IMG/VR virus record: IMGVR_UViG_3300043391_000370 | Location: 17,703-81,702 of that record | Reading direction: 5' to 3' (one strand) | Length of the DNA stretch: 64,000 bases | Origin: a virus | Taxonomy: Duplodnaviria > Caudoviricetes | Shown: one piece after another, positions 26,726 to 47,616 of the stretch | Layout of the letters: the number at the start of each line of letters is the position of its first letter | Position numbering within the stretch: the first letter of the stretch is position 1 | Made by a program: the position numbers and the translations under genes | Notes under the pieces: generated by a model | The model's database searches: none | What the model saw: the letters and a program-made list of their open reading frames with translations, nothing else | Told to the model about the DNA's origin: nothing

Positions 26726-26949
26726 GCCTCTGCAGGAACCTCTTCTGAAGTGACATCAACGGTTTGCTCTCCAGCAACTGGTTCGCAAACAGGAGTCGTG
26801 ATTGTTGCTTCTATTTCATAATCTGGACCATGCTCTTCAATCAAAGCAGAGACCTCTTCGATTGTATGACCAGTATCGTTATTAGAATCTGCAGTTAAAT
26901 GATACAGATGCATTAAAGGCAGTGTAAGTGTTGTAGTTTCGGTTGCCAT
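26722..26949 (-). CDS. Acidic hypothetical protein (75 aa; start reassigned to MATETT)
   Basis: TAATG coupling to the glycosyltransferase stop. Confidence 0.65.
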   Translation of the reverse strand: MATETTTLTLPLMHLYHLTADSNNDTGHTIEEVSALIEEHGPDYEIEATITTPVCEPVAGEQTVDVTSEEVPAEA

Positions 26950-31610: not shown

Positions 31611-32332
31611 AGTACGATCATTTTTTCATGTCCAACTCTAACCTTTGGATTACACCAAATCTCAAAACCATATTCCCTAAAGTCCTCACACATCGCAACA
31701 TCTTCTGAGCACATGTCCTCAAGAATAACTCCATCCTCACGAATGAGTTGAACTTTCTTTGGTGCAAACCAAGGATAAGGAATCTTCTCAAAGACACCTT
31801 TCTTCATCAGAACCCAACCAAATCCACAGTACTCAATCTTAAATGGTCCTGGTCGTCTTTGCATATCTTCAATTGTCTCAAAGTAATAAGAACCTTTGTT
31901 CATCAAAAGTTTCTTATCCATATCAACGACGACTGTGGACTGATTGGATGATGCAGTTCCATTTGATTGGACATACCAACCAGTCGAAATATCCTTATCC
32001 ATCTCAAGAAGGTCTAAGACATTCTGTGTATTGAAAACAATATCACTATCGATCCACATAATATAATCATAATTAACCTGACCTCTCCAGGGAGTCAGCA
32101 TCGTTCCGGCAAAGTTATCTGCCTGCAAACAATCAGTTCGGGCAAAGTTTACCATCGAACTATAGTGTTGAGAGATGTAAAAATTGATTCCGAGTTGGTT
32201 TAAATCAAAAACCAATCGAATGAATTGTGTGAGAAATGTACCTGAATATGAACGACCCGGAAGACAGAAGGCAATTGTTTTTCCTTTAAAATCATTCTTC
32301 GGTTGATTCGAATAATTTAGCATAAATGACAA
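31607..32332 (-). CDS. GT-A fold (GT2-like) glycosyltransferase, paralog of the next gene
   Basis: MWIDSDIVF, GFGWVLMKKGVFE, SEDVAMC, VGHEK. Confidence 0.75.
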   Translation of the reverse strand: MSFMLNYSNQPKNDFKGKTIAFCLPGRSYSGTFLTQFIRLVFDLNQLGINFYISQHYSSMVNFARTDCLQADNFAGTMLTPWRGQVNYDYIMWIDSDIVFNTQNVLDLLEMDKDISTGWYVQSNGTASSNQSTVVVDMDKKLLMNKGSYYFETIEDMQRRPGPFKIEYCGFGWVLMKKGVFEKIPYPWFAPKKVQLIREDGVILEDMCSEDVAMCEDFREYGFEIWCNPKVRVGHEKMIVL

Positions 32333-32368: not shown

Positions 32369-35300
32369 TTACCACCAGGTAATTTTAACATATCCATCCC
32401 CACCATCTCCACCGACACCAAAGGTTTGATTTTCATCTGCATATGCACCACCACCTCCACCACCTCCACGATCCCCATTACCACCATCACCGGCAATTCC
32501 TATTGAAGTTATAGAAGATGAAGATAGGGTTCCAGAAACACCAGCTGCGGCATAACCAGCAGCACCATAGGTAATTGAATTCAAAAGGTTTGTTGTGGTG
32601 GATGTTCTTGATGTCCAGGTGATCGCATCCGTGGAGAGTCTGATTACACCACCAGCACCGACTGCATAATAGATGCTGTTCAAATAACTTAATCTAAAAA
32701 TTGCAGAAGTACCAAAACCTGTTGTTCTTTGTTCCCAAATGATTGTATCTGTGGATGTTCTAAGCAATCCAGCATTACCACCGGCAAAGAATACTGTACC
32801 ATAACTTACGGCATTAATGTTTGTTGTACCAAATCCTGTGGTTCTTAGTACCCAAGAAATCGTATCAGTCGAAGTGATAATAGTATTGGTCACACCGAAA
32901 TAATCACTTGTTGCCGCAACATAATAATTACTATCATAAGTGAGTGCAGTAATGGACTGAACATTTGTCATAACCGTGGTTCTTAATGTCCAGGAAGCAG
33001 TATCTGCAGAAACGGCAAAGTATGCACCATTCACACCATAAGATGATAGAAGTGTCTGAGTCGATGCAGTTAGAGTTCCTGCTGCACCGGCAAGTAGGTA
33101 GTTATTATTACCATAGACTGAAGTAGAAATTGCCGTTGTACCAAATCCAGAAGTTCTTGCAGTCCATACAATACCATCAGTCGAAGTTCTACTGATTGCA
33201 CTATTACCGGAAGCAACATATATTCCATCACCATAAACATAAATGATACTGTTGACATTTATCGTACCAAATCCAGTAGTTCTTGTTGTCCAGGCAATTG
33301 CATCTGTTGAAGTTCTTAATGTTGCAGCACCACCAGCAATATAGATTGTTCCATAAGTTAATGCAAGTATACTAGAAGTACCGAATCCAGTAGTTCTTGA
33401 AGTCCAGACAATTGAGTCCGTGGATGTTCCAAGCAATCCACCATTACCACCGGCAACAAAAAGAGTTCCGGCAGTAAAGGCATTAATTTGAGTTGCACCG
33501 AATCCTGATGTTCTTTCAGACCAGGTGATATTATCAGTAGAAGCAATCAAACTTCTAGCATTTCCAAGATAGTTGGTGCCTGTTGCAAGATTATAACTTA
33601 GTTGCGTGGTTGTAGAAGTTGTTATGGTTCCACCATAACCACCGGCAACAAGAATATTATTTGCAAAAAGTAATTGAGCACGAACGATTGATGTTCCAAA
33701 ACCAGGGTTTCTTAAAGTCCAGGTGATTGCATCTGTTGAAATATTTAATCTTCCACCATCACCACCAATAACATAAAGATTATTTGCATAAAGTAAAGAC
33801 CAAATGCTTCCCCCAGTAAATCCAGAAGTTCTTAATGTCCAGGTGATTGCATCTGTTGAAGTGCCTAAAGATGGACCACCACCAATACTAGCAGCAACAT
33901 AAAGACCATTCCCATAAACTAAAGAATAAATGATTGTTGTACCAAATCCAGAAGTTCTTTGTGTCCAGGTGATTGCATCTGTTGAAGTGTTTAAGATTGC
34001 ACTATCACCAGCAGCAACATAAAGATTATTTCCATAGACTACAGAAAAAATATATGAACTACCAAAACCAGAGCAAGTTCTTAATGTCCAGGTAAGTGAG
34101 TCTGTGGATGTTGACAGATTTCCAGACTGATTTCCAGTTACATACTGATTATTTGCATAAATGATTGACCACGTTTGCGTGGCAGGTGTGGTTCGGTATT
34201 GCCAGACAATTCCATCAGTTGAAGTATTTAAGAATCCACCATCACCACTTAGGAAATAAGTATTATTTGCATAAGTTGAAGTGATAAAATTATCAACCAT
34301 ACCATTAGAAGTTCTTTGAGTCCAGGTGATAGTATCTGTTGAAGTGACTATAGTTCCACCACCACCAGCAGCAACATAAAGACCATTCCCATAAGTTAGA
34401 GCATAAATGACTGATGAACCAAATCCAGAGGTTCTTTGAGTCCAAGTACTGAATGGAACTAAAGTACCACCATTTACAGCAGTAAGAGTTTGAATATTAA
34501 GTGCGGTACTTCTAACAGTCCAGGTGATTGTATCGGTTGAAGCATTCAAAGTAACACCAGTACCAAAAGAACCAAGAATACTTTGAGGGGTTGAAATCAT
34601 TCTTCCCGTAATACCACTCATCACAAAAGTCTGATTGCCATAAACTGAAGCAGTAATTGCACTTGTACCAAATCCTGATGTTCTAAGTGTCCAAACAATA
34701 GCATCCGTTGAAACTAATTGAGTACCCGCAACACCACCAGAAGCATAAACATTATTATTATAAACTAGAGTGTTGATGACTGATACACCAAATCCAGAAG
34801 TCTGTAGTGCCCAGTTAATTGTATCAGTTGAAGTTGTTAAGAAAGGTTGACCGATATAGTTTGTACCGGCAGCAACATAAAGAGATTCACTTGTGGTTAA
34901 TGTCGTAATCGTTTGAGTATTAAGTCCAGTACTTCTGAGTGTCCAGGTGATTGTATCAGTCGAAGAACTTAGATATGCACCATTACCAAAGGAAGAAAGA
35001 ACAGTATCATTTGAAGTAGTCAGAGTTCCACTTGCACCACCGGCAAAATAAATGTTATTTCCAAAAGTCAGAGCATTAATTTGTGATGTACCAAATCCAG
35101 AAGTTCTGAGTATCCAGGTTATTGCATTTGTAGAAGTTGCCGATACACCATTTACACCAACTGCCGTAAAGACTGATTGCCCATAAGTTAATCCAAGAAT
35201 ATTGTTTGCACCAAATCCCGAAGTTCTTAATGTCCAGACAACTGAATCTGTAGAAGATGATACCAATCCACCATTACCACCGGCAAGATAAAGTGTTGCT

Positions 35301-38300
35301 CCATAAGAAATTGCACGAATATCTGTTGTACCAAGTCCAGAAGTTTGTACAATCCAACTGGTTGAATCACGAGAATATGTAATTGTTCCAGAGGCACCAC
35401 CAATAAGATAGAGTCCATCAACAGTTGAATATAATCCGGCATAAATTGTTGATGTACCAAAACCAGAAGTTTGTGCAGTCCAGGTGATTGTATCGGTAGA
35501 AGATGTAAGTGTTCCTGCATCACCACCAGCAATATAGATTCCTAAATCACTTGAGTAGGTTGTTTCATAAATGATTGAAGTACCAAAACCAGAGGTTCTC
35601 AATTCCCAAGTAATTCTATCCGTTGAAGTGGTTAATGTTCCAGCAGCACCACCGGCAACAAAAGATGTTCCATAGGTCAAGGCATTAATTAAAGTCGTAC
35701 CAAAACCAGAAGTTCTTAATATCCAGTTAATGGAATCAGTTGAAGTATTGATGATTCCAGCATCCCCACCGGCAATATAAAAATTATTTCCATAGGTCAA
35801 AGCATTAATTGAAGATGTACCAAAACCAGTAGTGGTTCTTGTAGTCCAAAGAGTTGAAAGTGTGGCACCGGCAGCAACATAAAGATTATTAGTATAACCA
35901 AAAGCATTAATTGCTAGTGTCGTTCCAGAGGTTCTTTGAGTCCAAACAATATTATTAGTAGAGACTTGTAGATTTCCATTTACCGCAGAAAGGTAATTGG
36001 TTCCTGTTAGGAATGAATAAGATCCACCAGAACCTAGTGTTGTAATTTTATCCAGATTAAGAAATCCAGTAGTTCTTAATGTCCAGTTAATCGCATCAGT
36101 CGAAGCACTTATTACTCCACCATCACCAAGATTAGCAAGTGTGGTTTGTGTTGTAGATGTTAATGTGCCAGCATCACCACCATTTAGATAAGTATTGTTT
36201 CCATAAACAAGTGCTCGTATTGTGGTGCCACCGAATCCTGATGTTCTCAAAGTCCAGGTGATTGCATCTGTAGAACTGATATTTGCACCAGCAACACCAG
36301 AAGCAACATAAACTCCACTATTATGGGCAAGACCAACGAAACTTTGAATTACACCAGCAGTTCTTAATGTCCAGGCAATTGCATCTGTTGAAGTTAAAAT
36401 TGTTCCACTTACACCAGAGACAACATAAACACCAGCATAAAGAGATTGATATAATGCATTTGCGGTTCCTGATGTTCTTGCAGTCCAGGTAATTGCATCG
36501 GTAGAAGTTTGAATCACACCGGCATTACGTGTTAAAAGATAAGTCGGTGTCGGTAAACTAGAATAATTAAGTGACTGGATAGAATTAGTAACATCACCAG
36601 ATGTTCTTATAGTCCAACGAATAGCATCAGTAGAAGTAAATACTGTTACCGAACTAGTAAAAACATAAGTGGATATTGGAGAATCACCATAAGCAATTGC
36701 CACAATACTAAGAGTTGTAGCAGTTCTTTGTGTCCAGGCAATAGTATCTGTAGAAGTTCTTAAAAGTCCAGAACCACCAGATAATACATAAGGTTCATTA
36801 CCTGTAGTTGCAGAACCAGATTTTCCGGCAACATACAGAAGTCCATTACCACCAGAAGATTGACCAATAGTGGCTGCTGTTCCAGAAGTTCTAGAAGTCC
36901 AGGCAATACCATCTGTAGATACTACCAATCTTCCACCAGTACCAGCAGCAAGGAAGTTAGTACCATCATATATTGATGTATAAATTGCAGAAGTACCAAA
37001 TCCAGAAGTTCTTTGATCCCAAATAATATTTGCACCACCAATAAGAATCTCACCATTAAAGAATGTTGCAGTATTAATTATAGATGGACTGGTTGATGTG
37101 GTTCTTGTAGTCCAGGCAATTGCATCTGTAGAAGTTCTGGTTGTAATATTACTGGCAGCAAGGTAAATATTATTTCCAAAGGCAAGTGTAGAAATTGTGG
37201 ATGTACCGAATCCAGCAGTTCTGAGGAACCAAATTGTAGAAACAGAAGCACCTCCGGCAACGAACTCATTATTAAAGAATGTCATCGCACCAATTGCAGT
37301 CGTTCCGAATCCAGAGGTTCTAATTGCCCAGGAAATTGTATCGGTAGAAGCAGTTAAGAGTCCACCAGCACCGGCAGCAGCATAAAAATTATTACCAAAT
37401 GCAAGTGTGGCAATTGCAGAAGTACCAAATCCTGATGTTCTTTGATTCCACATCGTGGTGATTGTTGCACCACCGGCAAGATAAAGACCGTTATTATATC
37501 CTAGTGCCGTGATTGGTTGGTTATTGGCAATACCAGGATTTCTTGATGTCCAGTTAATCGTATCCGTAGAGGCAATTATAAAACCTTCGTTTATATAATT
37601 AGTACCACCGGCAAGATAAAAAGTATTATCAGAGAATGTTGTAGTAATGGTTTGAGTATTGATTCCTGTGGTTCTAAGTGTCCAATTGATCGTATCAGTA
37701 GAGATACTAAAGTGAGCACCATTACCAAACGAAGAAACTTGTGCATCTAAAGCAGTAGCAATTGTTCCACCACTACCAGCAGCATAGAAAGATCCAGAAT
37801 TATATAATAACTGGCCGATTGTGGATCCACCAAATCCAGAAGTCCTAGTGACCCAAGTAATTCCATCTGTTGATGTCGTAACTGTATTTGTTCCAGAATT
37901 AACTTGACCTCCAGCAACATATACACCATTACCATAACTCAAAGTATTAATAAAGACTGTACCAAATCCTGCTGTTCTTAATGTCCAGACAATTGTATTT
38001 GTTGAAGTGTTTAGAACTCCACCTTGCCCACCCGCAAGATAAAGATTATTTGCATAAAGTAAAGAGTTAATGTTGGAAGTACCAAATCCAGAAGAAGTTC
38101 TTGAAACCCAAGAAATTGAATCGGTCGAAACTCTAATTGTTCCACCAGCACCACTAGCAAGATAAGGATTTGGTTGCCCAGAAGCATAAATTAATCCGTT
38201 TCCAGCAGCAAAATTACCAATACCAGATGTACCAAATCCAGAAGTTCTTAAAGTCCATGCAATTGTATCTGTTGAAGTGTTTATAATTCCAGAAGTAGCA

Positions 38301-40549
38301 CCAAGAAAATAATTAGTACCATCAAACATAAAAGTGTAAATAGAGGATGCACTAACTGCAGCACTTCTTAAAGTCCAGGTTATTGTATCCGTAGAAGCAA
38401 TTAAAATTCCCAAAGTACCCCCGGCAAGATAGATTCCATTACCATATCCTAGTGAAAGAATACCTGATGTACCAAAACCTGAAATGGTTGTTCTTTGAGT
38501 CCAGGTGATTGAGTCTGTAGATGCTGACAGAGTTCCGGTTATTCCACCAGCAACATAAAGATTGTTGCCAAATGTAAATGCCTGGATAATGGTAGAACCA
38601 AATCCTGATGTTCTTTGAGTCCAAAGAGTTGATACTGCAACACCAGCAGCATAATAAGTCGTACCCTTATATCCAAGAGCATTAATTGTTTGAGTAGTAC
38701 CAAAAGTTCTCAAATTCCAAGTTGATAGTCCAGATGAGAATGCTCCACCACCGGCACCACCACTACCGATGCTTCCAGTATAAGAACTTAGAATACTTGC
38801 TGCTCCATTTGTTCCGGCATTTGAACCACCAGTAACAGTATAACTATTTCCATAATAGTAAGAGGTAACACTACCACCACTATTCGTATTATAAGCACCA
38901 CCGGCACCACCAGTCGGTTGATAAGGTACTGATGGTGATGTTGCATTAATTCCAGTTCCAAGTACAGAAAGACCGGCACCACCAGCAAGACCGGCAGTTG
39001 TATAGAATGGATTTACAGTAGATGCAGTTGCCGCACCTGCTGGACCTGCCGTGACTGCCGTATCAGAAGCACCAGTACCACCGGCAGCACTTAAGGTATA
39101 AGTAAGTGTCCCGTCAGTAATATGAGGTATTCCAGTCCAGGTTAAAGTTGTTGCGGAACCTGATGATGTACTGTTAACAACATTAAGATTACCAGTAGTG
39201 CCTACAAGATAAAGACCATTTAAGTATTCAGTTGTCCATGCAATACCATAATTCTGAACAAGTGCGGTTCTTTGTGTCCAAACTATCGTATCGGTAGAAG
39301 TCGCAACAAATCCAGTTGGTGCCGATGTAACTCCAATATTAATAGCAGCACCACCAGAAGCAACATAAACACCATTACCATAAGTTATAAACCATGTCGA
39401 TGATTTACCAAACCCAGAAGTTCTATAAGTCCAGGTGATTGCATCTGTAGAAGTGGTTAGTACTCCAGCAGAACCACCGACAACATAAAGATTATTCGCA
39501 AACTTAATTGCTTTTACATCAGTATAACCAAATCCAGAAGTTCTTTGTGTCCAGGTGATTGCATCTGTTGAAGTGTTTAGAACTCCACCATTACCAACGG
39601 CAACAAAAGATGTTCCATAAGCAAAAGTATTAATAGTTGTTGTACCAAAACCAGAAGTTCTTTGTGTCCAGGTAATCGAGTCCGTTGAAGTATTTAAGAT
39701 TCCACTATCACCACCGACAACATAGGTATTGTTTGCATAAAATGAGGTATAAATGTTTGATGTACCAAAACCAGATGAAGTTCTTAAAGTCCAGGCAATT
39801 GCATCTGTTGAAGTTTGAATCAATCCAGAAAATCCACCAATTACAAAAATATTATTCCCATAAATGATAGACCTACTAACAGTAGTTGGTGCCGCAGAAG
39901 TTCTTAAAGTCCAAATAATTGTATCTGGAGAAGTATATATTGATACAGAAAAGGAAACATAAACACCATTACCATATGCTAATCCAAAAACAGTATTATT
40001 AGTGGCTCTTGGTCTCCATGTAATACCATCAGTACTTACAGATAATCCACGATTTCCTGCAAGACCACGAGTACCAGGTGTTACGGTAATCGTAGAAGCA
40101 CCGGCAAGTTCTGGACGACGAATGATCCAAGAAGCATAGGCACCAGAACCTCCACCGGCAGCGGCACCTAATGTACCTGTTGGTCTTCCTGCTGATCCCG
40201 CACCACCTGCACCAATTGCCTCAATATAAAGAGTCGATGCACTTTGAGGAACATAAAAGGTTTGTGCAAATGGTTGTGTAAACTCCTGAGCACCTTTATA
40301 AGTTACTGCATTACTTGCCGATGAAGTTAATGGTTTCCAACTGGTTGAACTACTTGAATATGGTGATGTGAGTAAGGTTCCAGTACCACCACCAGAGATT
40401 ACATAATTATCCGATGTCTTTGTGGAGTATAATAAAGATGAAGTATTCGAAGTTCTGAGTGTCCAGGTGATTGAATCCGTCGAACTAAGTACTGCACCAG
40501 TTAATGGACTTGTCGCAATATAAGTATTATTGATGTAATTGATCTTCAT
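32369..40549 (-). CDS. Giant Asp-box/BNR-like repeat protein (2726 aa) on a Gly-rich scaffold; putative virion appendage
   Basis: About 57 S-T-D-x-I-x-W-T-x-R-T-S-G repeats; C-terminus GDGGDGYVKITWW. Confidence 0.85.
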   Translation of the reverse strand: MKINYINNTYIATSPLTGAVLSSTDSITWTLRTSNTSSLLYSTKTSDNYVISGGGTGTLLTSPYSSSSTSWKPLTSSASNAVTYKGAQEFTQPFAQTFYVPQSASTLYIEAIGAGGAGSAGRPTGTLGAAAGGGSGAYASWIIRRPELAGASTITVTPGTRGLAGNRGLSVSTDGITWRPRATNNTVFGLAYGNGVYVSFSVSIYTSPDTIIWTLRTSAAPTTVSRSIIYGNNIFVIGGFSGLIQTSTDAIAWTLRTSSGFGTSNIYTSFYANNTYVVGGDSGILNTSTDSITWTQRTSGFGTTTINTFAYGTSFVAVGNGGVLNTSTDAITWTQRTSGFGYTDVKAIKFANNLYVVGGSAGVLTTSTDAITWTYRTSGFGKSSTWFITYGNGVYVASGGAAINIGVTSAPTGFVATSTDTIVWTQRTALVQNYGIAWTTEYLNGLYLVGTTGNLNVVNSTSSGSATTLTWTGIPHITDGTLTYTLSAAGGTGASDTAVTAGPAGAATASTVNPFYTTAGLAGGAGLSVLGTGINATSPSVPYQPTGGAGGAYNTNSGGSVTSYYYGNSYTVTGGSNAGTNGAASILSSYTGSIGSGGAGGGAFSSGLSTWNLRTFGTTQTINALGYKGTTYYAAGVAVSTLWTQRTSGFGSTIIQAFTFGNNLYVAGGITGTLSASTDSITWTQRTTISGFGTSGILSLGYGNGIYLAGGTLGILIASTDTITWTLRSAAVSASSIYTFMFDGTNYFLGATSGIINTSTDTIAWTLRTSGFGTSGIGNFAAGNGLIYASGQPNPYLASGAGGTIRVSTDSISWVSRTSSGFGTSNINSLLYANNLYLAGGQGGVLNTSTNTIVWTLRTAGFGTVFINTLSYGNGVYVAGGQVNSGTNTVTTSTDGITWVTRTSGFGGSTIGQLLYNSGSFYAAGSGGTIATALDAQVSSFGNGAHFSISTDTINWTLRTTGINTQTITTTFSDNTFYLAGGTNYINEGFIIASTDTINWTSRNPGIANNQPITALGYNNGLYLAGGATITTMWNQRTSGFGTSAIATLAFGNNFYAAAGAGGLLTASTDTISWAIRTSGFGTTAIGAMTFFNNEFVAGGASVSTIWFLRTAGFGTSTISTLAFGNNIYLAASNITTRTSTDAIAWTTRTTSTSPSIINTATFFNGEILIGGANIIWDQRTSGFGTSAIYTSIYDGTNFLAAGTGGRLVVSTDGIAWTSRTSGTAATIGQSSGGNGLLYVAGKSGSATTGNEPYVLSGGSGLLRTSTDTIAWTQRTATTLSIVAIAYGDSPISTYVFTSSVTVFTSTDAIRWTIRTSGDVTNSIQSLNYSSLPTPTYLLTRNAGVIQTSTDAITWTARTSGTANALYQSLYAGVYVVSGVSGTILTSTDAIAWTLRTAGVIQSFVGLAHNSGVYVASGVAGANISSTDAITWTLRTSGFGGTTIRALVYGNNTYLNGGDAGTLTSTTQTTLANLGDGGVISASTDAINWTLRTTGFLNLDKITTLGSGGSYSFLTGTNYLSAVNGNLQVSTNNIVWTQRTSGTTLAINAFGYTNNLYVAAGATLSTLWTTRTTTGFGTSSINALTYGNNFYIAGGDAGIINTSTDSINWILRTSGFGTTLINALTYGTSFVAGGAAGTLTTSTDRITWELRTSGFGTSIIYETTYSSDLGIYIAGGDAGTLTSSTDTITWTAQTSGFGTSTIYAGLYSTVDGLYLIGGASGTITYSRDSTSWIVQTSGLGTTDIRAISYGATLYLAGGNGGLVSSSTDSVVWTLRTSGFGANNILGLTYGQSVFTAVGVNGVSATSTNAITWILRTSGFGTSQINALTFGNNIYFAGGASGTLTTSNDTVLSSFGNGAYLSSSTDTITWTLRSTGLNTQTITTLTTSESLYVAAGTNYIGQPFLTTSTDTINWALQTSGFGVSVINTLVYNNNVYASGGVAGTQLVSTDAIVWTLRTSGFGTSAITASVYGNQTFVMSGITGRMISTPQSILGSFGTGVTLNASTDTITWTVRSTALNIQTLTAVNGGTLVPFSTWTQRTSGFGSSVIYALTYGNGLYVAAGGGGTIVTSTDTITWTQRTSNGMVDNFITSTYANNTYFLSGDGGFLNTSTDGIVWQYRTTPATQTWSIIYANNQYVTGNQSGNLSTSTDSLTWTLRTCSGFGSSYIFSVVYGNNLYVAAGDSAILNTSTDAITWTQRTSGFGTTIIYSLVYGNGLYVAASIGGGPSLGTSTDAITWTLRTSGFTGGSIWSLLYANNLYVIGGDGGRLNISTDAITWTLRNPGFGTSIVRAQLLFANNILVAGGYGGTITTSTTTQLSYNLATGTNYLGNARSLIASTDNITWSERTSGFGATQINAFTAGTLFVAGGNGGLLGTSTDSIVWTSRTTGFGTSSILALTYGTIYIAGGAATLRTSTDAIAWTTRTTGFGTINVNSIIYVYGDGIYVASGNSAISRTSTDGIVWTARTSGFGTTAISTSVYGNNNYLLAGAAGTLTASTQTLLSSYGVNGAYFAVSADTASWTLRTTVMTNVQSITALTYDSNYYVAATSDYFGVTNTIITSTDTISWVLRTTGFGTTNINAVSYGTVFFAGGNAGLLRTSTDTIIWEQRTTGFGTSAIFRLSYLNSIYYAVGAGGVIRLSTDAITWTSRTSTTTNLLNSITYGAAGYAAAGVSGTLSSSSITSIGIAGDGGNGDRGGGGGGGAYADENQTFGVGGDGGDGYVKITWW

Positions 40550-40602
40550 CTATTATACACCTTTCTGTTGGAAATTATAATTCAACGGACACATTTTAAT
40601 TC

Positions 40603-40609
40603 TATTTAG
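40603..40609 (-). promoter_or_regulatory. Late-promoter-like CTAAATA in the gap between the two giant genes
   Basis: Same motif as upstream of gp26 (15608-15614) and in the gp4 divergent gap. Confidence 0.5.
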
Positions 40610-40632
40610 ATTGATTACAAAATGGTAATATA

Positions 40633-43600
40633 CTAATATCCAGAAGTTCTCTGAGTCCAGGTAATTGTATCTGTTGAGACTGCAAAGGAACTACCTGTAT
40701 CACTTGCAATATAAAGACTATCCTTACCAACAAAGGTAATATCATCCACAGAAGAAGTTCCAAATCCAGAAGTTCTTAAGTACCAAGTAACAGTATCAAT
40801 TGAAGTAGCAATTGTTCCAGAATCACCAACAATAAAATAAGTTGCATTATAATATTTAACACCATTAATTATTGTTCCCATAGTAATTCCTGTTGCTCTT
40901 GTAGTCCAGATAATTGAATCCGTCGATGCCGCAATTATTCCAGGTCTTCTATCATAATCTGAGAACGATGCCAGATAATATTGACTTCCCAAAATAACAT
41001 GATCTAATTGCTGTACGTTCACAGAAGAAGTTCTTAATCTCCAGGAAATTGCATCGGTGGAAACAATAATAGTGGCACCATCTCCACGATTCGTTAGAGA
41101 ACTATAAGTTCCGGTAGCAACATAACCAAATGATGAAACCTGAACATAAGTATCATTATTATAAGCAATACCATTAATTATATCAGTAATACCAGAGGTT
41201 CTGGCAATCCAGATTACACCATCAGTTGAAGCAGAGTTACCACCACCACCAGAAGTTACATAAAGATTATTGGCATATAATACATTTCGAGTACCACCCG
41301 TAGCAACAGTTCTTAAAGTCCAGGTGATTGAATCTGTGGATGTTTGAATAATTCCAGCACCAGATGGAGAAATGTGTCCAGCAACATAAAGATTTGTACC
41401 ATTATAAGTTATACCATTAATTGGATATCCTGGTTGCCTATAAGCAGATGTTCTTAATACCCAAGAAACGGCATTTGTGGAAACTGCAATTGATGTATTG
41501 CCATCAAAATCACTAAATCCACCGACAAACTTCAGACCATCATAGAAAAAGGTATTTGCATCTTGAACATTTGATACTGTGGTTCTAACAAACCAGTTAA
41601 TGGTGTCTGTAGATGCCGATAAGAATGCACCATTACCTGGATTAGTGAGTGATGCATAGGTTGCCGTACCCAGAATACCAAGCTCTCCAGAAAAAATAAA
41701 TTGATTATTTGCATAACTTAAAGTAAAAATATTTCGGGTTACTCCAGAAGTTCTAAGAGACCAAGTAATTGTGTCTGTTGAGATTGCTGTGCCACCTGTA
41801 GATGCACTAACAACATAAAGTCCATTATCATAAGCAAATGAATAGATAGTTGTTGAACCAAATCCAGAAGTTCTTAGTGTCCAGGTGATTGCATCTGTTG
41901 AAGTGTTTAAAGTTCCACCACCGGCACCACCAAGAATATAAGTACCGTTCTGATACAACATTCCATAGATTGTTGCACCAGTACCTGATATGCCAGCAGT
42001 TCTTAACGTCCAGGTGATAGTATCTGTCGATGTTATAATAGGTGGAATTTCACCAGATCTCCCACCACCACCAGCAACATAAAGACCATTACCATAGATT
42101 AATCCTCGACTATCTCCAGTATTAGTAAGTCCGGTTGTTCTTAGTGACCAGAAAATTGCATTTGTCGAAACTGAAATTACACAATCATTTGCAACACCAA
42201 GAGATTCTCCAGAAACACCAGAACCAACATAAAGACCATTAACATAGATTAGTGCTCGATAAAATGCGGTTGTTCCAGAAGTTCTTTGTGTCCAGGCAAT
42301 TGCATTTGTTGAAGACGTAATGGTTCCACCCCGACCATTCAAAACATAAGTACCGGCATTATAAACAAACCCATGTATTGCACTCGTACCAAATCCAGAA
42401 GTTCTAGCAGTCCAGGTGATTGTATCCGTAGAAGCAATTAAGAGTCCACTATTGCCACCAGTAACGTAAAAACCATTCTGATAAATTACTGTTCCCATTC
42501 CACCAAATCCAGAAGTTCTTAAAGTCCAGGCAACAGTAGGATTCAAACCACCAATCAAATAAAATCCACCACCAAAATAAACAGTATTTACAGTCTTACC
42601 ATAAGACCTAGAAGTTCTTAAAATCCAGGTGATATTATCAGTCGAAGCAGAAGTCACACCAGGAATTGAGAAATAATCAGTTCCGGAAGCAACATAATAA
42701 GAACTCGAAGCAGTTAGTTTATCAACCTGAACCATTCCTGATGATGTGGTTCTTGTAGTCCAGGAGACTGCATCAGTAGAAACATTCAGTCTTGCACCAT
42801 TACCTAAGGTTGTTAAGATACTTGCAGATGCTGATTGAAGTCTTCCTGTGGTTCCAGAAGTTATGAAAGTATTATTACCGGCAGCAGCACGATGCATTAA
42901 AGTAACAGATTGACTTATAGTAGATGTTCTTGATATCCAAATGATTCCATCAGTTGATGTTCTTGTAGAACCTCCAGCAGTAGCAAGCACAAAAATATTA
43001 TTTGCATATACTAAATCTCTAGATATTGATGTTCCTAGTGACCCAGTTCTTAATGTCCAAGTGATTGTATCTGTGGAAGTTTGTATAATGCCATTATTAT
43101 CACTCGAAACAGTAACATAAAGATTTGAACCATTTGTACTAAGAACTGCAGTATAATTTGATGCTGCAGCAGTTCTTGCAGTCCAGTTAATCGTATCTGT
43201 GGAAACTGCAAGTGTTGTATTGGAATTATAATTACTCAGAGCAGCAAGATAAAGTGAAGAACTGGAAGTGATCGCATCTACTTGCTGAACATTCGGTATT
43301 GAAGTTCTTATGTCCCAGGTGATATTATCAGTAGAGGTTGATAGAAGTGCTCCGTTTCCTAGATTTGTGAGTTGTGAGTATGTTGCCGTGGTTAGAGTTC
43401 CATTATCACCACCAGCAACATAAGTATTATTGCCAAAGGTTAATCCAATTATACGAGTTGAACCAAATCCAGAAGTTCTTTGTGTCCAAGTGATAGTATC
43501 TGTTGAAATGATTAATGTTCCACTATTACCTGAAGCAACATAAAGATTATTTCCATAAAGAAACTCATATAAATTAACTGCAGTTCCAGAAGTTCTAAAA

Positions 43601-45777
43601 GTCCAGGCAATTGTATCTGTTGAAGTGGTTATAAGTCCACCATTACCACCGGCAACATAAGTATTGTTTCCATAAACTAATGATTGAATTGCATTCGTAC
43701 CAAATCCAGAAGTTCTAAATGTCCAAGTGATTGCATCTGAGGATGTTGCTAAGGTTCCAACAACACCACCAGCAACATAAAAATTATTACCAAATGTAAG
43801 TGTTTGAATATTAGTATTGCCAAATCCTGAAGTTCTATAAGTCCAAGTGATTGCATCTGTTGAAGTGGTTATAGTTCCACCCGTACCACCAGCAACATAA
43901 AGGTTATTTGCATAAGTAATTTCAAATATACTACTTGTACCAAATCCAGAAGTTCTCTGCTCCCAAGTAATAGTATCTGTTGAAGTCGATAATACATTTG
44001 CACCAAATGCATTAGCAACATAAAGATTATTTCCATATGTTATTGCAAAAATTTCAGTTGTACCAAATCCAGAAGTTCTCAAAATCCAACTGATTGAATC
44101 AGTCGAAGTACTTATGAGACCATTTCTTCCATTAATTGTATAAAAATTATTTGCAAAAAGGATATTACTTATTTGTTCTGCAGTTCCAGAAGTTCTTAAA
44201 GTCCAACTTACAACAAGACTTAAACCACCAACCAAATATCTACTATCATCGGCATAAAGTGAAGTAATCGCATTTCCACTCACACCAGCAGTTCTTAAAG
44301 TCCAAATGATATTATTTGTAGATACAGAAATAATACCTCCCACACCAGCATAAGTACAATTTGATGCAAGATAATATGAGGAATTAGAAGCAAAATAATC
44401 GACTTGTGCAATACCTGATGTTGTGGTTCTTGTAGTCCAGGATACTGCATCGGTAGAAGCAGTTAGAAGAGCACCATTATCAAGAAGTCCTGATGCCGTG
44501 GTTAAAGTTCCACCACTACCACCAGCAACATAAAGATTGTTTACATAACGTAACATACTAATAAGTGATGTACCAAATCCAGAAGTTCTATAAGTCCAGG
44601 TGATTGCATCTGTTGAAGTGGTTAATCTTCCATTATCACCACCAGCAACATAAGTATTGTTTGCATAAAGTAAAGATAGAATATGTGTAGAACCAAATCC
44701 AGAAGTTCTTAAAGTCCAGGCAATTGTATCTGTTGAAGTGTTTAGAGTTCCACCAGTACCACCTACAATATAAGTATTGTTTGCATAAAGTACGGAACGA
44801 ATCTGTGATGCACCAAATCCAGAAGTTCTTTGAGTCCAAGTGATTGAATCAGTTGAAGTGTTTAGAACTCCACTAAACCCACCAGCAACATAAAGATTAT
44901 TTGCATAAATTAAAGGAATAATAACTGTTGCACCAAATCCAGAAGTTCTTAGTGTCCAGGCAATTGAGTCTGTCGAAACTGATATTCCACCATCACCTGC
45001 AATATAATAATTACTGTTTGCATAAATTAATGATGCAATAGTTACCGAAACACCAGAAGTTCTTAGTGTCCAGGCAATTGAGTCTGTTGAAGTGTTTAGA
45101 GTTCCACCAGCACCAGCAGTAACATAAAAATTATTTTCAAAAATAATTGCTCTTATGGTACTTACACCAAATCCAGAAGTTCTTTGAGTCCAATTATTCA
45201 AAGAATCATAAAGACCACCAGCAAGAAAATATCCCTGACCAAAGACTACATCATTAATATCAACACTACCAAACCCAGAAGTTCTTAATGTCCAGGTAAT
45301 TGTATCAGTATATCCACCGGCAACAAAGTATCCATTTCCATAGGTTACGTCATTAACTGTAGTAGTTCCAAATCCTGAAGTTCTTAAAGTCCAACTTAAA
45401 CTTCTATCCGTGTCACCACCGGCAAGGTAAATATTATTCCCATAAACAACATCATACAATATCGCATTTGAAGCAGACGTTCTTAAAGTCCAAGATACTG
45501 CATCCGTAGAAGTATTTAATATTCCTGTACTACTTCCTCCAACGGCAACATAAAGATTATTGGAATAAAGGAGTCCGTTAATATTATCTGTACCAAAACC
45601 AGCAGTTCTTAAAATCCAGACAACTCCTGGAGATGGATCAACTTGCAAAAAGGTATTAGCAGCTGCCGTTGTAACTGATGCAAATGAGGCATTATCTACA
45701 TACTCTTTGTTTACAACATCAGTAGAATTGGATACTACACTTACATCAATAACCTTATTACTGTCTAATGTTGCCAT
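40633..45777 (-). CDS. Giant Asp-box/BNR-like repeat protein (1714 aa), ends in mid-repeat
   Basis: About 40 repeats; N-terminal STDVVNKEYVDN; ends TDTITWTQRTSGY-stop. Confidence 0.85.
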   Translation of the reverse strand: MATLDSNKVIDVSVVSNSTDVVNKEYVDNASFASVTTAAANTFLQVDPSPGVVWILRTAGFGTDNINGLLYSNNLYVAVGGSSTGILNTSTDAVSWTLRTSASNAILYDVVYGNNIYLAGGDTDRSLSWTLRTSGFGTTTVNDVTYGNGYFVAGGYTDTITWTLRTSGFGSVDINDVVFGQGYFLAGGLYDSLNNWTQRTSGFGVSTIRAIIFENNFYVTAGAGGTLNTSTDSIAWTLRTSGVSVTIASLIYANSNYYIAGDGGISVSTDSIAWTLRTSGFGATVIIPLIYANNLYVAGGFSGVLNTSTDSITWTQRTSGFGASQIRSVLYANNTYIVGGTGGTLNTSTDTIAWTLRTSGFGSTHILSLLYANNTYVAGGDNGRLTTSTDAITWTYRTSGFGTSLISMLRYVNNLYVAGGSGGTLTTASGLLDNGALLTASTDAVSWTTRTTTSGIAQVDYFASNSSYYLASNCTYAGVGGIISVSTNNIIWTLRTAGVSGNAITSLYADDSRYLVGGLSLVVSWTLRTSGTAEQISNILFANNFYTINGRNGLISTSTDSISWILRTSGFGTTEIFAITYGNNLYVANAFGANVLSTSTDTITWEQRTSGFGTSSIFEITYANNLYVAGGTGGTITTSTDAITWTYRTSGFGNTNIQTLTFGNNFYVAGGVVGTLATSSDAITWTFRTSGFGTNAIQSLVYGNNTYVAGGNGGLITTSTDTIAWTFRTSGTAVNLYEFLYGNNLYVASGNSGTLIISTDTITWTQRTSGFGSTRIIGLTFGNNTYVAGGDNGTLTTATYSQLTNLGNGALLSTSTDNITWDIRTSIPNVQQVDAITSSSSLYLAALSNYNSNTTLAVSTDTINWTARTAAASNYTAVLSTNGSNLYVTVSSDNNGIIQTSTDTITWTLRTGSLGTSISRDLVYANNIFVLATAGGSTRTSTDGIIWISRTSTISQSVTLMHRAAAGNNTFITSGTTGRLQSASASILTTLGNGARLNVSTDAVSWTTRTTSSGMVQVDKLTASSSYYVASGTDYFSIPGVTSASTDNITWILRTSRSYGKTVNTVYFGGGFYLIGGLNPTVAWTLRTSGFGGMGTVIYQNGFYVTGGNSGLLIASTDTITWTARTSGFGTSAIHGFVYNAGTYVLNGRGGTITSSTNAIAWTQRTSGTTAFYRALIYVNGLYVGSGVSGESLGVANDCVISVSTNAIFWSLRTTGLTNTGDSRGLIYGNGLYVAGGGGRSGEIPPIITSTDTITWTLRTAGISGTGATIYGMLYQNGTYILGGAGGGTLNTSTDAITWTLRTSGFGSTTIYSFAYDNGLYVVSASTGGTAISTDTITWSLRTSGVTRNIFTLSYANNQFIFSGELGILGTATYASLTNPGNGAFLSASTDTINWFVRTTVSNVQDANTFFYDGLKFVGGFSDFDGNTSIAVSTNAVSWVLRTSAYRQPGYPINGITYNGTNLYVAGHISPSGAGIIQTSTDSITWTLRTVATGGTRNVLYANNLYVTSGGGGNSASTDGVIWIARTSGITDIINGIAYNNDTYVQVSSFGYVATGTYSSLTNRGDGATIIVSTDAISWRLRTSSVNVQQLDHVILGSQYYLASFSDYDRRPGIIAASTDSIIWTTRATGITMGTIINGVKYYNATYFIVGDSGTIATSIDTVTWYLRTSGFGTSSVDDITFVGKDSLYIASDTGSSFAVSTDTITWTQRTSGY

Positions 45778-45813: not shown

Positions 45814-47604
45814 CTACCACCAAGTAATTTTCACATAACCATCACCACCATTACCACCATTACCAAAAGTACTTCCAATCGAAGCACCACCACCTCCACC
45901 ACCACCTCTGATACCATTACCACCAGTTGCGGCAATTGATACACTTGCTCCTGCACCACCACCACCAAAACCATAAGGAAGTCCAGTAATTGCAGTTGCA
46001 CTACTTCCATTTGTTCCTAATGATGACCCACCAGATACTGATGTCGTATTTCCATAAAAATTAATTGTTCCACCGGCACCACCAGATGTTGTTGTGATTC
46101 CTGCACCAGATCCACCACCGGTTGCCTGATATTGATTGGAAGATGTAAGTGCAGTATATCCAATACCACCTGTATTATTTGCACCCGAGAGTCCGATGGT
46201 AGTGTAATAATAATTGGTGATTGCAGTTTGTGCGATACCTGGTGTTTGTCCAGGACTACCAGATGCAGTTAAATTATAAGTTCCTCCGGGGCCAGTCCAG
46301 GATACCGTGGTTCCGGCACCTGCAGAACCTCTAGCAGCATCCGTACTTCCACCAGAACCACCAACCCCAGGATTGACTGTAAGATTCGAACTTACAATAT
46401 TTTTCGGAATGTACCAGGAAGTATAAGAACCAGAACCACCACCGACTCCTCCTGTCTGATAATATGAGACTGCTAGAGTTCCACTAGCACCCCCGGCAAC
46501 ATAAATGTTATTAGCATATGTTATAGAAGTAACAGATGATGTACCAAATCCAGAAGTTCTTAATGTCCAGGCAATTGCATTTGTTGAAGTGTTTAGAACT
46601 CCAGAAATACCACCAGCAACATAAAAATTATTTGCATAGACAAGAATATTGATAGTTGTTGCACCAAATCCAGAAGTTCTTTGTGTCCAACGGATTGAGT
46701 CTGTTGAAGTTGCTAAAGTTCCAGAAGCACCACCGGCAACATAAGTATTGTTTGCATAAATTAAAGAAGTAATCTGTGAATTACCAGATCCAGTAGTTCT
46801 TTGTGTCCAGAAGATAGCATTTGTAGAAGTGGTTAGAACTCCACCAGTACCACCAGCAACATAAGTATTGTTTGCATAAAGTACGGAAATAATAGATGTT
46901 GCACCGAATCCAGAAGTTCTTTGTGTCCAACGGATTGAGTCTGTTGAAGTTGCTAAAGTTCCAGAAGCACCACCGGCAACATAAGTATTGTTTCCATAAT
47001 GTAATATTTGAATGCTAGTTGATCCAAATCCAGAAGTTCTTTGAGTCCAAGTGATTGCATCTGTTGAAGTGGTTAGTGTCGCAGCAATACCATTAGCATA
47101 ATAATTATTGTTTAAATAAGTTAAGAAAAGAATCTGTGATGTACCAAATCCAGAAGTTCTAAAAGTCCAGGCAACCGAATCTGTAGAAGTGATTAATATT
47201 CCATTATTACCACCGGCAACATAAGTATTGTTTCCATAAACTAATGATTGAATTGCATTCGTACCAAATCCAGAAGTTCTAAATGTCCAAGTAACTGCTG
47301 CTTGTTCCGTGGTTTGTCCTGCACTTCCACCACCACCAGCACCGATTGCCTCAATATACAACATATTTGCCTGATTTGGAACCGTAAAGGTTTGTGCTCC
47401 GGTTGATGTAAACTCCTGATAATTGGTAACATAATCCCAGGATGTTGTCGTCCCATCAGTTGTGGTTAAAAACTTTCCGGCATTACCAGTCTGTGATGGT
47501 AATGTTTGATTCAGTTTTAAATCTACATATGCCTTATTTGGAACATCAGTCGGTTGTGTAAATGATGTGATTCCTTGAATTGAACTAGAAGTAATTGTAA
47601 TCAT
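45814..47604 (-). CDS. Gly-rich scaffold protein with one 7-repeat insert (596 aa)
   Basis: FTVP..YIEAIGAGGGG, then 7 repeats, then GGGSGSY..GDGYVKITWW. Confidence 0.85.
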   Translation of the reverse strand: MITITSSSIQGITSFTQPTDVPNKAYVDLKLNQTLPSQTGNAGKFLTTTDGTTTSWDYVTNYQEFTSTGAQTFTVPNQANMLYIEAIGAGGGGSAGQTTEQAAVTWTFRTSGFGTNAIQSLVYGNNTYVAGGNNGILITSTDSVAWTFRTSGFGTSQILFLTYLNNNYYANGIAATLTTSTDAITWTQRTSGFGSTSIQILHYGNNTYVAGGASGTLATSTDSIRWTQRTSGFGATSIISVLYANNTYVAGGTGGVLTTSTNAIFWTQRTTGSGNSQITSLIYANNTYVAGGASGTLATSTDSIRWTQRTSGFGATTINILVYANNFYVAGGISGVLNTSTNAIAWTLRTSGFGTSSVTSITYANNIYVAGGASGTLAVSYYQTGGVGGGSGSYTSWYIPKNIVSSNLTVNPGVGGSGGSTDAARGSAGAGTTVSWTGPGGTYNLTASGSPGQTPGIAQTAITNYYYTTIGLSGANNTGGIGYTALTSSNQYQATGGGSGAGITTTSGGAGGTINFYGNTTSVSGGSSLGTNGSSATAITGLPYGFGGGGAGASVSIAATGGNGIRGGGGGGGASIGSTFGNGGNGGDGYVKITWW

Positions 47605-47616
47605 TTGTTTTCCTCC

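What the first reader, a model, noticed from the sequence alone, without database searches (positions are those of the whole stretch)
32369..45777. Recursively nested 7-repeat modules: a branched tree of putative beta-propellers
Seen in sequence: the repeats are not a flat array. Some repeats break after ..YxAGG, a short linker leads into a new W-T-x-R-T-S-G series, and the broken repeat resumes later at GNGA/GDG..S. Parsed as brackets, the 2726-aa protein has an outer unit P0 (~38719-32515) carrying A (~38623-37751) in blade 1 and B (~37450-33063) in blade 3. B carries C (~37231-34590) and F (~34444-33614). C carries D (~37021-36152) and E (~35848-35013). All seven units count to exactly 7 repeats, and a separate 7-repeat unit lies at ~40046-39170. 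The 1714-aa protein nests the same way: P1 contains Q; Q contains R and U; R contains S and T. Established: Asp-box/BNR (Ycf48-like) repeats form 7-bladed propellers. Inference: a dendritic, multivalent virion appendage of ~14 propellers built by repeated insertion of a whole domain into the same blade loop. I know of no description of this architecture.
Basis: partly seen in the sequence, partly recalled or inferred. Interest (0 to 1): 0.93.

Follow-up and report, generated by a model that had tools for sequence, protein, structure and literature searches.

The report
Propellers nested inside propellers, phage fibre proteins
Two adjacent giant genes in the tail region of an uncultured T4-like cyanophage encode 14 seven-bladed beta-propellers that are spliced into loops of one another like a branching Russian doll rather than strung in a row; the sequence and related phages support this well, but only one parent-child junction could be modelled.

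Summary
The 2726-aa protein has 57 roughly 40-aa Asp-box-type blades. Six are cut short after strand 2, and six orphan "strand 3 + Asp-box" pieces lie further downstream. Paired as brackets they give seven units of exactly 7 blades, plus one flat 7-blade unit.

The 1714-aa protein nests the same way, with two differences. Unit S has 6 blades. Its outermost propeller has only 5 blades and is completed by the first 62 residues of the next gene; eight related phages have one unsplit gene here.

With the children removed in silico, every parent is 276-291 aa with 7 contiguous blade matches, like the flat propellers. Excised parents best match the excised orthologous parents in a related contig.

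AlphaFold2 on one parent-child module gave pLDDT 93. The bracketed child superposes on whole 7-bladed propellers (Z 32) exactly at the bracket boundaries. Parent closure was not seen directly, because no coordinates are returned, and a 943-aa fold failed.

The same nesting, up to five propeller levels deep, occurs in many uncultured viral contigs. A role as a virion fibre rests on gene neighbourhood only.

A solved precedent for recursive same-domain insertion exists: Si3 of cyanobacterial RNA polymerase. Earlier unchecked notes of this scan report nested RCC1 propellers in other phages.

The parts
40633..45777 (-). Gene for P0002 (1714 aa): N-terminal scaffold piece plus a propeller tree, outer(Q(R(S,T),U)). 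It ends in mid-propeller at ...WTQRTSGY*.
32369..40549 (-). Gene for P0001 (2726 aa): last two blades of the outer propeller, split Gly-rich scaffold, one flat propeller, and the tree P0(A,B(C(D,E),F)).
40550..40632 (-). 83-nt spacer that splits what is one gene in relatives. It has stops in all frames and AAGGTG 9 nt before the ATG. No terminator-like site was found.
45619..45777 (-). Scaffold N-terminal piece (P0002 aa 1-53, MATLDSNKV...FLQVD). It corresponds to the N-termini of the paralogs up to the loop FLxTDG|TTSW.
45415..45618 (-). Outer propeller, piece 1 (P0002 aa 54-121): velcro W strand, blade 1, and strands 1-2 of blade 2 (open).
40636..41085 (-). Outer propeller, piece 2 (P0002 aa 1565-1714): strands 3-4 of blade 2, then blades 3-5.
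40364..40549 (-). Outer propeller, piece 3 (P0001 aa 1-62): blades 6 and 7, encoded in the next gene.
41107..45393 (-). Unit Q (span, P0002 aa 129-1557), inserted in blade 2 of the outer unit. It has 7 own blades and carries R and U.
42832..45294 (-). Unit R (span, aa 162-982), inserted in blade 1 of Q. It has 7 own blades and carries S and T.
   Evidence: excised R is 72% identical to excised R of L004
44494..45192 (-). Unit S (aa 196-428): leaf with 6 blades. The ortholog in L004 has 7.
43381..44205 (-). Unit T (aa 525-799): leaf with 7 blades. This is the child that was folded.
43162..44304 (-). Module folded by AF2 (P0002 aa 492-872): open parental blade, T, exit linker, resumed parental strands, and the 'special' blade.
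41659..42528 (-). Unit U (aa 1084-1373): leaf with 7 blades, inserted in blade 3 of Q.
40049..40363 (-). Scaffold piece 2 (P0001 aa 63-167: ...STSWKPL...YIEAIGAGGAGSAG...PGTRGLAGN).
39140..40048 (-). Flat 7-blade propeller (P0001 aa 168-470), inserted in a loop of the Gly-rich scaffold.
38720..39139 (-). Gly-rich scaffold, middle piece (P0001 aa 471-610).
32504..38719 (-). Unit P0 (span, P0001 aa 611-2682). It has 7 own blades and carries A in blade 1 and B in blade 3.
37751..38623 (-). Unit A: leaf with 7 blades.
33062..37450 (-). Unit B (span). It has 7 own blades and carries C in blade 2 and F in blade 3.
34589..37231 (-). Unit C (span). It has 7 own blades and carries D in blade 2 and E in blade 4.
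36152..37021 (-). Unit D: leaf with 7 blades (the YDGTN / GGNGLLY subtype, conserved in relatives).
35012..35848 (-). Unit E: leaf with 7 blades.
33614..34444 (-). Unit F: leaf with 7 blades, inserted in the strand 1/2 turn of a 'special' blade.
32372..32503 (-). Gly-rich scaffold, C-terminal piece (...GDGYVKITWW).
45814..50307 (-). Two paralogs on the same scaffold with flat propellers only: 596 aa with one propeller, 896 aa with two. They serve as internal controls for un-nested units.

Best explanation
The two genes encode one ancestral protein, now split in two. A small scaffold (an N-terminal domain plus a glycine-rich Gly_rich_2-type domain ending GDGYVKITWW) carries 14 beta-propellers of an Asp-box/BNR-like, YCF48-like fold.

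Each propeller has seven 40-aa four-stranded blades. It begins with its outermost 'W' strand and ends after strand 3 of blade 7, so its two ends meet in one blade (1+3 velcro closure).

That geometry lets a whole propeller sit in a tight turn of a blade of another propeller, almost always the strand 2/3 turn. The result is two trees four propeller levels deep: outer(Q(R(S,T),U)) and P0(A,B(C(D,E),F)), plus one flat propeller.

The two halves of a single parental blade can lie up to 1478 residues apart in the chain.

In this phage the outer propeller is cut between blades 5 and 6 by an 83-nt spacer with its own ribosome-binding site. I infer that the two polypeptides reassemble by blade complementation (5+2).

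The trees grow and shrink by whole 7-blade cassettes. I infer that this happens through recombination between the conserved entry and exit linkers.

Most likely role (inferred from gene neighbourhood only): a tail or baseplate-attached fibre whose many propeller faces give multivalent binding to host surface glycans.
For: SHOWN BY SEQUENCE
- Truncated and orphan HMM matches pair as brackets.
- Under the 7-rule, the six predicted exits are the six longest repeats.
- Every unit, parent or leaf, has one W without a preceding Asp-box, six with one, and one box-less exit. For nested units the exit is followed by the motif xxLxxxG[ND]GA.
- After in-silico excision, P0, B, C, Q, R and the outer unit (P0002+P0001) are 276-291 aa with 7 back-to-back blade matches. 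Flat units are 277-295 aa.

SHOWN BY COMPARISON
- Excised parents best match the excised orthologous parents in contig L004: R 72%, B 55%, Q 55%, P0 51%. All 11 L004 units are 281-296 aa.
- The window's P0 tree is 879 aa longer than L004's, which equals 3 x 293.
- P0003, P0006, P0007, L001:16593 and L004 all parse into units of 7, with P0007 five propeller levels deep.
- 35 non-redundant leaf modules were found in 15 related loci and this window.
- Eight complete orthologs with the same N-terminus (900-3589 aa) all run through to GDGYV[KR]ITWW. Only the window's stops at WTQRTSGY*.

SHOWN BY MODELLING (one module)
- AF2 gave pLDDT 93.1 and pTM 0.86.
- Whole 7-bladed propellers align to model residues 31-311, the bracketed child: 2z2o Z 32.3, rmsd 2.1 A, 279 residues; also 7big and 3ow8.
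- YCF48 matches with TM 0.70-0.74 normalised to the target.
- The parental strands before and after the child have pLDDT 83-93 and the canonical strand lengths.

CONTEXT
- The genes lie among gp5-like hub, tail-tube cap, baseplate wedge and tail-fibre genes.
- The nearest isolates are T4-like cyanophages S-SRM01 and P-SSM2.
Against: - Pairing of the two halves of a parental blade was not seen directly, because the tool returns no coordinates.
- My alignment for the successful fold contained 66 flat units covering only the child, which itself hints at the domain boundary.
- The 943-aa fold of C with D and E failed (pLDDT 34), so no two-child parent has been modelled.
- 49 repeats is also divisible by 7 under a flat reading.
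- Unit S has 6 blades.
- Nothing shows the proteins are in the virion, bind anything, or that the two halves associate.
- The record is a 38%-complete metagenomic contig, so the split and the 6-blade unit could be assembly errors.
Confidence: 0.72

Rival explanations
1. Beads on a string. The repeats form propellers from sequentially adjacent blades, and the short and long repeats are just degenerate blades or inter-domain linkers.
For: The repeat totals are multiples of 7 either way (49 in the P0 tree). Many relatives have plainly flat arrays of 14, 21 or 28 repeats. The large fold gave no information.
Against: AF2 closes the ring exactly on the bracketed seven repeats and leaves the adjacent truncated repeat outside it. 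Truncated and orphan pieces add up to one canonical 40-42 aa blade, and their HMM coordinates are complementary. Entries and exits nest like parentheses, with 7 per level. Excised parents are orthologous as wholes.
Confidence: 0.05
2. The nested architecture is right, but the proteins are not receptor-binding fibres. They could be capsid or tail decoration, a shield against host defences or grazers, or a secreted or cell-surface protein made during infection.
For: No domain with a demonstrated receptor-binding role was identified. Pfam gives only DUF6242 and Gly_rich_2. The same propeller occurs in many bacterial surface proteins with PKD, Ig or FN3 domains. A glycosyltransferase/methyltransferase cluster lies directly downstream.
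Against: The genes lie between baseplate and tail-fibre genes, and the same order is seen in L001. The scaffold N-terminus of the 596-aa paralog weakly matches minor-tail and fibre PHROGs. Viral structure hits include tail-fibre and baseplate-wedge proteins.
Confidence: 0.25
3. The split into two genes, and the 6-blade unit S, are assembly or sequencing artefacts of a metagenomic contig, or a recent inactivating lesion. The real phage would make one protein of about 4440 aa.
For: All eight complete orthologs are unsplit. L004 has a 7-blade S, and the difference is a clean 44-aa gap. The region is highly repetitive, with identical 87-99 bp blocks between genes. The contig is a 38%-complete fragment.
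Against: The spacer is 83 nt of non-repeat, AT-rich sequence with stops in all frames and a well-placed AAGGTG-N9-ATG. That is not what a collapsed repeat or a single-base error gives. Both ORFs remain open for 1714 and 2726 codons. The cut falls in the link between two blades, after the outer strand of blade 5.
Confidence: 0.15

Closest known systems
YCF48/HCF136 photosystem II assembly factor (PDB 2xbg, 5ojr, 5oj3)
   Same: A seven-bladed propeller of short blades with Asp-box-like turns. Foldseek TM 0.70-0.74 normalised to the target, 16% identity to the modelled child.
   Different: A single stand-alone domain with no inserted domains. No sequence-level family match for the window proteins.
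Flat DUF6242/BNR propellers in phage and bacterial surface proteins (for example BFVD A0A6J5SXG5, 299 aa; S-CBWM1 'BNR repeat domain protein'; the window's own 596-aa and 896-aa paralogs)
   Same: The same blade, the same 7-blade unit of about 280-295 aa, and the same velcro boundaries. A0A6J5SXG5 matches with TM 0.84 (normalised to the target) and rmsd 2.0 A. 14,795 cluster representatives match the query at E<=0.001.
   Different: The units lie side by side or alone. No blade is interrupted.
Si3 insertion of cyanobacterial RNA polymerase beta' (PMC10895346)
   Same: One domain type inserted repeatedly into copies of itself. [quoted passage not shown]
   Different: Small sandwich-barrel-hybrid-motif (SBHM) domains, eight in all, in an essentially linear nest forming a stalk. 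Here the domains are 280-aa closed rings in a branched tree, with up to two children per parent.
Crassvirus muzzle protein gp44 (PMC10172136) and integrin alpha-I domains (PMC2784866, abstract only)
   Same: A foreign domain looped out of a seven-bladed propeller. In gp44, IG1 lies between blades 2 and 3 and IG2 lies inside blade 3.
   Different: Single-level insertion of a different fold, not a propeller within a propeller and not recursive.
Designed eight-bladed propellers Tako8/Ika8 (PDB 6g6m, 6g6o)
   Same: The only PDB sequences that a flat unit matches by sequence (E 4e-8 to 1e-3). They also have 40-aa idealised blades.
   Different: Eight blades. They superpose poorly on the model as a whole (rmsd 11 A). 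They are artificial.

Membership tests
BNR/Asp-box type beta-propeller (YCF48-like) | Asp-box-like turn (S-x-D-x-G-x-T-W) between strands 3 and 4 of each blade | tested here: met
   The consensus S-T-D-x-I-x-W precedes six of the seven W strands of every unit. The central G of the classical box is replaced by I/V.
BNR/Asp-box type beta-propeller (YCF48-like) | Closed ring of four-stranded antiparallel blades | tested here: met
   AF2 model of unit T: six blades of 4 strands, plus 3 strands and the N-terminal strand. It aligns over 270-279 residues to whole 7-bladed propellers, Z 30-32, rmsd 2.1-2.3 A. Only this one unit was modelled.
BNR/Asp-box type beta-propeller (YCF48-like) | Match to Pfam BNR (PF02012), BNR_2 or PSII_BNR models | tested here: not met
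   No such hit for P0001, P0002 or single units, even at E<=10. More distant homologs do carry them.
Pfam DUF6242 (PF19755) | Score above the gathering threshold (29 bits) | tested here: met
   P0002 scores 40.3 bits and the 896-aa paralog 30.6 bits. P0001 has no hit, and single units score 21-27 bits. The match covers only the last third of the model.
Pfam Gly_rich_2 (PF21722) scaffold | Score above the gathering threshold (24.3 bits) over the whole domain | tested here: inconclusive
   The 596-aa paralog scores 19.3 bits over model positions 12-225. Homolog P0007 scores 34.1 bits. In P0001 the domain is in three pieces and gives no hit.
Nested (discontinuous) domain insertion | The insert is a complete domain whose two ends are adjacent in space | tested here: met
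   The child starts with the outer strand and ends with strand 3 of the same blade (DSSP). The ring spans model residues 31-311.
Nested (discontinuous) domain insertion | The parent domain is reconstituted from the flanking pieces | tested here: inconclusive
   In favour: excised parents have 7 canonical blades, are orthologous as wholes, and their flanking strands are modelled at pLDDT 83-93 with pTM 0.86. Strand pairing itself could not be inspected.
Phage tail fibre / receptor-binding protein | Encoded in the tail/baseplate module | tested here: met
   Neighbours match tail fibre, baseplate wedge, gp5-like hub, tube cap and an S74 chaperone fibre. The gene order is syntenic in L001.
Phage tail fibre / receptor-binding protein | Present in virions and needed for adsorption | not testable with these tools
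   The virus is uncultured and known only as a contig.

The most novel reading that the evidence does not exclude
Recursive propeller-in-propeller insertion is a general, evolvable way for large phages to grow branched single-chain binding 'trees'. Any 7-blade cassette or whole subtree can be swapped into a blade turn, because all units share entry and exit linkers. In this phage, one propeller split 5+2 between two genes is the non-covalent joint that ties two trees into a 14-propeller assembly.
Probability: 0.4. Interest if true: 0.85.

Novelty: new variant of a known kind. Interest (0 to 1): 0.78.

Why it matters
The proteins are an extreme test case for protein folding and evolution. A parental blade cannot be completed until up to 1478 residues (five further propellers) have been made, yet the design is conserved and varies by whole cassettes between related phages, from 900 to about 4440 aa on one scaffold. 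That makes the stepwise growth of a protein by domain insertion traceable. It suggests how phages can pack many binding faces into a compact branched body rather than a long thread. It also offers a natural template for branched multivalent protein design. In addition, it warns that domain annotation pipelines, which assume contiguous domains, will misread such giant phage proteins.

Tried and rejected
- AF2 on the 943-aa segment holding C with D and E (12-row alignment) gave mean pLDDT 34 and no information.
The plan was three chains rebuilding the outer propeller from P0002 and P0001 pieces, so blade complementation in trans is untested.
- Global alignment of the window tree to the L004 tree, looking for clean 'empty sites', was ambiguous. 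The aligner slides repeats against each other; only the total length difference (879 aa) and the single 44-aa gap in S are usable.
- My automatic bracket parser is fragile on diverged relatives: 245 consistent against 1337 inconsistent units. I rely on hand parses of five relatives and on the stricter leaf-module detector.
- Megablast of neighbouring genes against phage records found nothing. tblastn of P0002 found only flat, short relatives in isolates: DSL-LC01 with a 290-aa propeller and DC31 with 596 aa.
- Literature searches for nested or inserted propellers, for cyanophage propeller fibres and for the Pfam names found no description of this architecture.
- BFVD held no model covering both parent and child; TM normalised to the query was at most 0.67.
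- A catalytic (sialidase-like) role was considered and set aside. The blades are minimal and the conserved residues look structural, but this was not tested.
Full report
WHAT IS THERE

The window is part of an 81.7-kb IMG/VR viral contig judged 38% complete. All genes around the finding lie on the minus strand. They match a T4-like baseplate and fibre module: a gp5-like hub with lysozyme, a tail-tube cap, wedge subunits, several tail-fibre proteins and a fibre with an S74 chaperone domain. The closest isolates for a neighbouring fibre gene are Synechococcus phage S-SRM01 (67% identity) and Prochlorococcus phage P-SSM2. The two ORFs of the finding are 40633-45777 (P0002, 1714 aa) and 32369-40549 (P0001, 2726 aa).

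THE REPEAT AND THE BREAKS

Both proteins consist almost wholly of a 40-aa repeat with consensus WTQRTSGFGTSSIRSLIYANNTYVAGGAGGTLTTSTDAIT. There are 57 copies in P0001 and 40 in P0002.

A blade HMM built from 36 canonical copies reports two unusual kinds of match. The first kind is truncated at HMM column 28-31, directly followed by a short linker and a new repeat. The second kind is an orphan match to columns 26-40 that follows an already complete repeat. One truncated piece (26-28 aa) plus one orphan piece (14 aa) adds up to 40-42 aa, one canonical blade.

THE BRACKET PARSE

Reading truncations as 'open' and orphans as 'close' gives, in P0001:
- P0 = repeats 9, 17, 18, 54-57
- A = 10-16
- B = 19, 20, 42, 50-53
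- C = 21, 22, 30, 31, 39-41
- D = 23-29
- E = 32-38
- F = 43-49
- a separate flat unit = 2-8

Every unit has seven repeats. If one only marks the opens and closes a unit after seven repeats, the six predicted exits fall on repeats of 57, 57, 57, 57, 66 and 58 aa. These are the six longest of the 49; the next longest is 55. By my arithmetic the chance of this is about 7e-8.

Each unit, parent or leaf, also has the same signature. One W strand is not preceded by an Asp-box, six are, and the last blade has no box. For nested units that last blade runs into a conserved exit linker, xxLxxxG[ND]GA.

P0002 parses as outer(Q(R(S,T),U)). Q, R, T and U have seven repeats and S has six.

EXCISION IN SILICO

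Removing the children in a script leaves P0, B, C, Q and R at 276-291 aa, each with seven contiguous, near full-length blade matches. The flat propellers of this locus are 277-295 aa with seven matches.

THE SCAFFOLD AND THE SPLIT GENE

The upstream paralogs (596 and 896 aa) show the uninterrupted scaffold. It has an N-terminal domain (...NKxYVD...FLxTDGxxTSW...QEFT...YIEAxGAGGGG) and a glycine-rich domain ending GDGYV[KR]ITWW. Flat propellers are inserted at one or two loops.

In the giant pair this scaffold is in pieces: P0002 aa 1-53, then P0001 aa 63-167, 471-610 and 2683-2726.

The outer propeller of P0002 sits in the FLxTDG|TTSW loop. It has only five blades, and the protein stops at WTQRTSGY*. 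After 83 nt, with stops in all frames and AAGGTG 9 nt before the ATG, P0001 starts in mid-blade (MKINYINNTYIA...) and supplies blades 6 and 7 before the scaffold resumes. Joined in silico, the outer unit is 287 aa with seven blade matches.

Eight complete orthologs with the same MATLDSNKV N-terminus, 900 to 3589 aa long, all run through to GDGYV[KR]ITWW. Only the window's is cut.

Whether the two polypeptides reassemble is an inference. The complex predictor was closed.

RELATIVES

The blade family is very large: 14,795 cluster representatives at E<=0.001. Most align only to a single flat unit.

Nested forms are common among close relatives. P0003 (1865 aa) has a unit with the same topology as C, b b(7) b b(7) b b b, and aligns co-linearly with it. 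L001:16593 and P0006 are unsplit orthologs with two children in the outer propeller. The late-site tree of P0007 is a linear nest five propeller levels deep, with every unit counting seven.

L004, a 3589-aa single protein 58% identical to P0002, parses as outer(Q(R(S,T),U)), one flat unit, and P0(A,B'(D)). All eleven units have seven blades and are 281-296 aa once excised.

Excised window parents find their excised L004 counterparts as best matches: R 72%, B 55%, Q 55%, P0 51%. D matches D at 70%. So the discontinuous pieces behave as single evolutionary units.

The window's P0 tree is 879 aa longer than L004's, which is 3 x 293 and corresponds to three extra units. The window's S is one blade (44 aa) shorter.

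A strict detector found 35 non-redundant [open blade - 7-blade child - exit - resumed strands - 'special' blade] modules in 15 related loci and this window.

Identical 87-99 bp blocks shared between different repeat genes show ongoing recombination or gene conversion. With the shared entry and exit linkers, that gives a plausible route for cassette gain, loss and swapping. This route is inferred.

STRUCTURE PREDICTION

The first job was C with D and E, 943 aa, with a 12-row alignment. It failed at pLDDT 34.

The second job was the module P0002 aa 492-872, with a 101-row alignment of 35 co-linear modules and 66 flat units. It gave mean pLDDT 93.1 and pTM 0.86.

The DSSP pattern is:
- two parental strands (residues 13-18 and 23-28)
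- the child's outer strand (35-37)
- six four-stranded blades
- a three-stranded seventh blade (285-307)
- a short helix in the exit linker (309-313)
- two parental strands (320-324 and 330-333)
- a complete 'special' blade

Whole 7-bladed propellers superpose on residues 31-311, which is exactly the bracketed child. Virginiamycin B lyase 2z2o gives Z 32.3, rmsd 2.1 A and 279 aligned residues. The designer protein 7big and WDR61 give similar values. YCF48 is among the Foldseek hits.

The prediction therefore does not group the truncated repeat with its sequence neighbours.

Two caveats apply. The flat units in my alignment cover only the child, which hints at the boundary. And no coordinates are returned, so I could not verify that residues 23-28 pair with 320-324. 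The high pLDDT of these flanks (83-93) and the pTM argue that they are packed, not loose.

HOW IT LIKELY WORKS

The Asp-box marks the strand 3/4 turn, so the W strand is the outermost strand. A unit that starts with W and ends after strand 3 has both ends in the same outer blade edge. That is what an inserted domain needs.

Ten of eleven children sit in the AGG|GxG turn between strands 2 and 3. F sits in the strand 1/2 turn of a 'special' blade.

After nine of the eleven resumed blades comes a divergent blade (...NxQxIxxL...Y..A.GTNY...) that may brace the child; after B and Q the next blade is more degenerate. The bracing role is speculation.

The function is inferred from context only: a baseplate- or tail-attached appendage with many propeller faces for multivalent binding to host surface glycans. 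I put about 0.55 on this function and about 0.9 on the nested topology.

WHAT IS KNOWN

Single-level insertion of another fold into a propeller is known. Examples are crassvirus gp44, with Ig-like domains between blades and inside a blade (PMC10172136), and integrin alpha-I domains.

Recursive insertion of one domain into itself is solved for Si3 of cyanobacterial RNA polymerase, where SBHM-2 to -5 are built from distant chain segments (PMC10895346). That lead came from earlier notes of this scan.

I found no paper describing propellers nested in propellers or a branched tree of them. Earlier, unchecked notes of this scan report a similar nesting with RCC1-type blades in other phage genomes (e1-5668092, e1-5668100).

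I therefore class this as a new variant of a known kind. The building block and the principle of nested insertion are known. The branched, four-to-five-level, same-fold propeller tree and the propeller split across two genes are not.

Noticed in passing
window 40550-40632 (between the two giant genes): The outer propeller is split between blades 5 and 6 by an 83-nt spacer with its own ribosome-binding site. All eight complete orthologs fetched are unsplit. This may be a propeller reassembled from two polypeptides (5+2 blades).
   Followed up: partly
window 44494-45192 (unit S): This is the only unit with six blades. The 58%-identical ortholog in L004 has seven, and the difference is one clean 44-aa gap at P0002 aa 330/331. 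It could be a real six-bladed ring or a collapsed repeat in the assembly.
   Followed up: partly
window 45294-45415 (P0002 aa 122-161): Three 'open' blades follow one another directly. One of the three entry linkers (YTDTITW) keeps an Asp-box at the canonical D-to-W spacing; in the other two (DTDRSLSW, LYDSLNNW) the Asp lies one residue further from the W. The entry linkers in P0001 (for example VAVSTLW) have no Asp. The linker may derive from the box turn.
   Followed up: no
window 43642-43728 / 47206-47292; 44524-44622 / 49435-49533; 46667-46753 / 46907-46993: Blocks of 87, 99 and 87 bp are 100% identical between different repeat genes or within one gene, while most repeats are only 60-80% identical. 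This points to recent gene conversion or recombination.
   Followed up: yes
window 26949-32332: A cluster of glycosyltransferase-like and SAM-methyltransferase genes lies directly downstream of the giant genes. The same order (giant repeat genes, then GT-like genes, then a methyltransferase) is seen in L001. The cluster might modify the Ser/Thr-rich propellers.
   Followed up: no
L001:2638-9999: The neighbour of the nested-propeller genes in a related contig is a 2453-aa protein. It has long collagen-like GxQ runs, a block of seven FG-GAP-like repeats (DNFGxSVATSADGKTIIVGA...) and a C-terminal chaperone-like end.
   Followed up: no
L002:381-6929 (P0007): The late-site tree is a purely linear nest five propeller levels deep (top > c1 > c2 > c3 > c4), with each level counting seven blades. 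This topology differs from the branched trees of the window.
   Followed up: partly
window 45814-50307: The two paralogs carry flat propellers at scaffold loops. One of these loops, after GAGGGGSAG, is unused in P0001. The scaffold therefore accepts cassettes at four or more different loops.
   Followed up: partly
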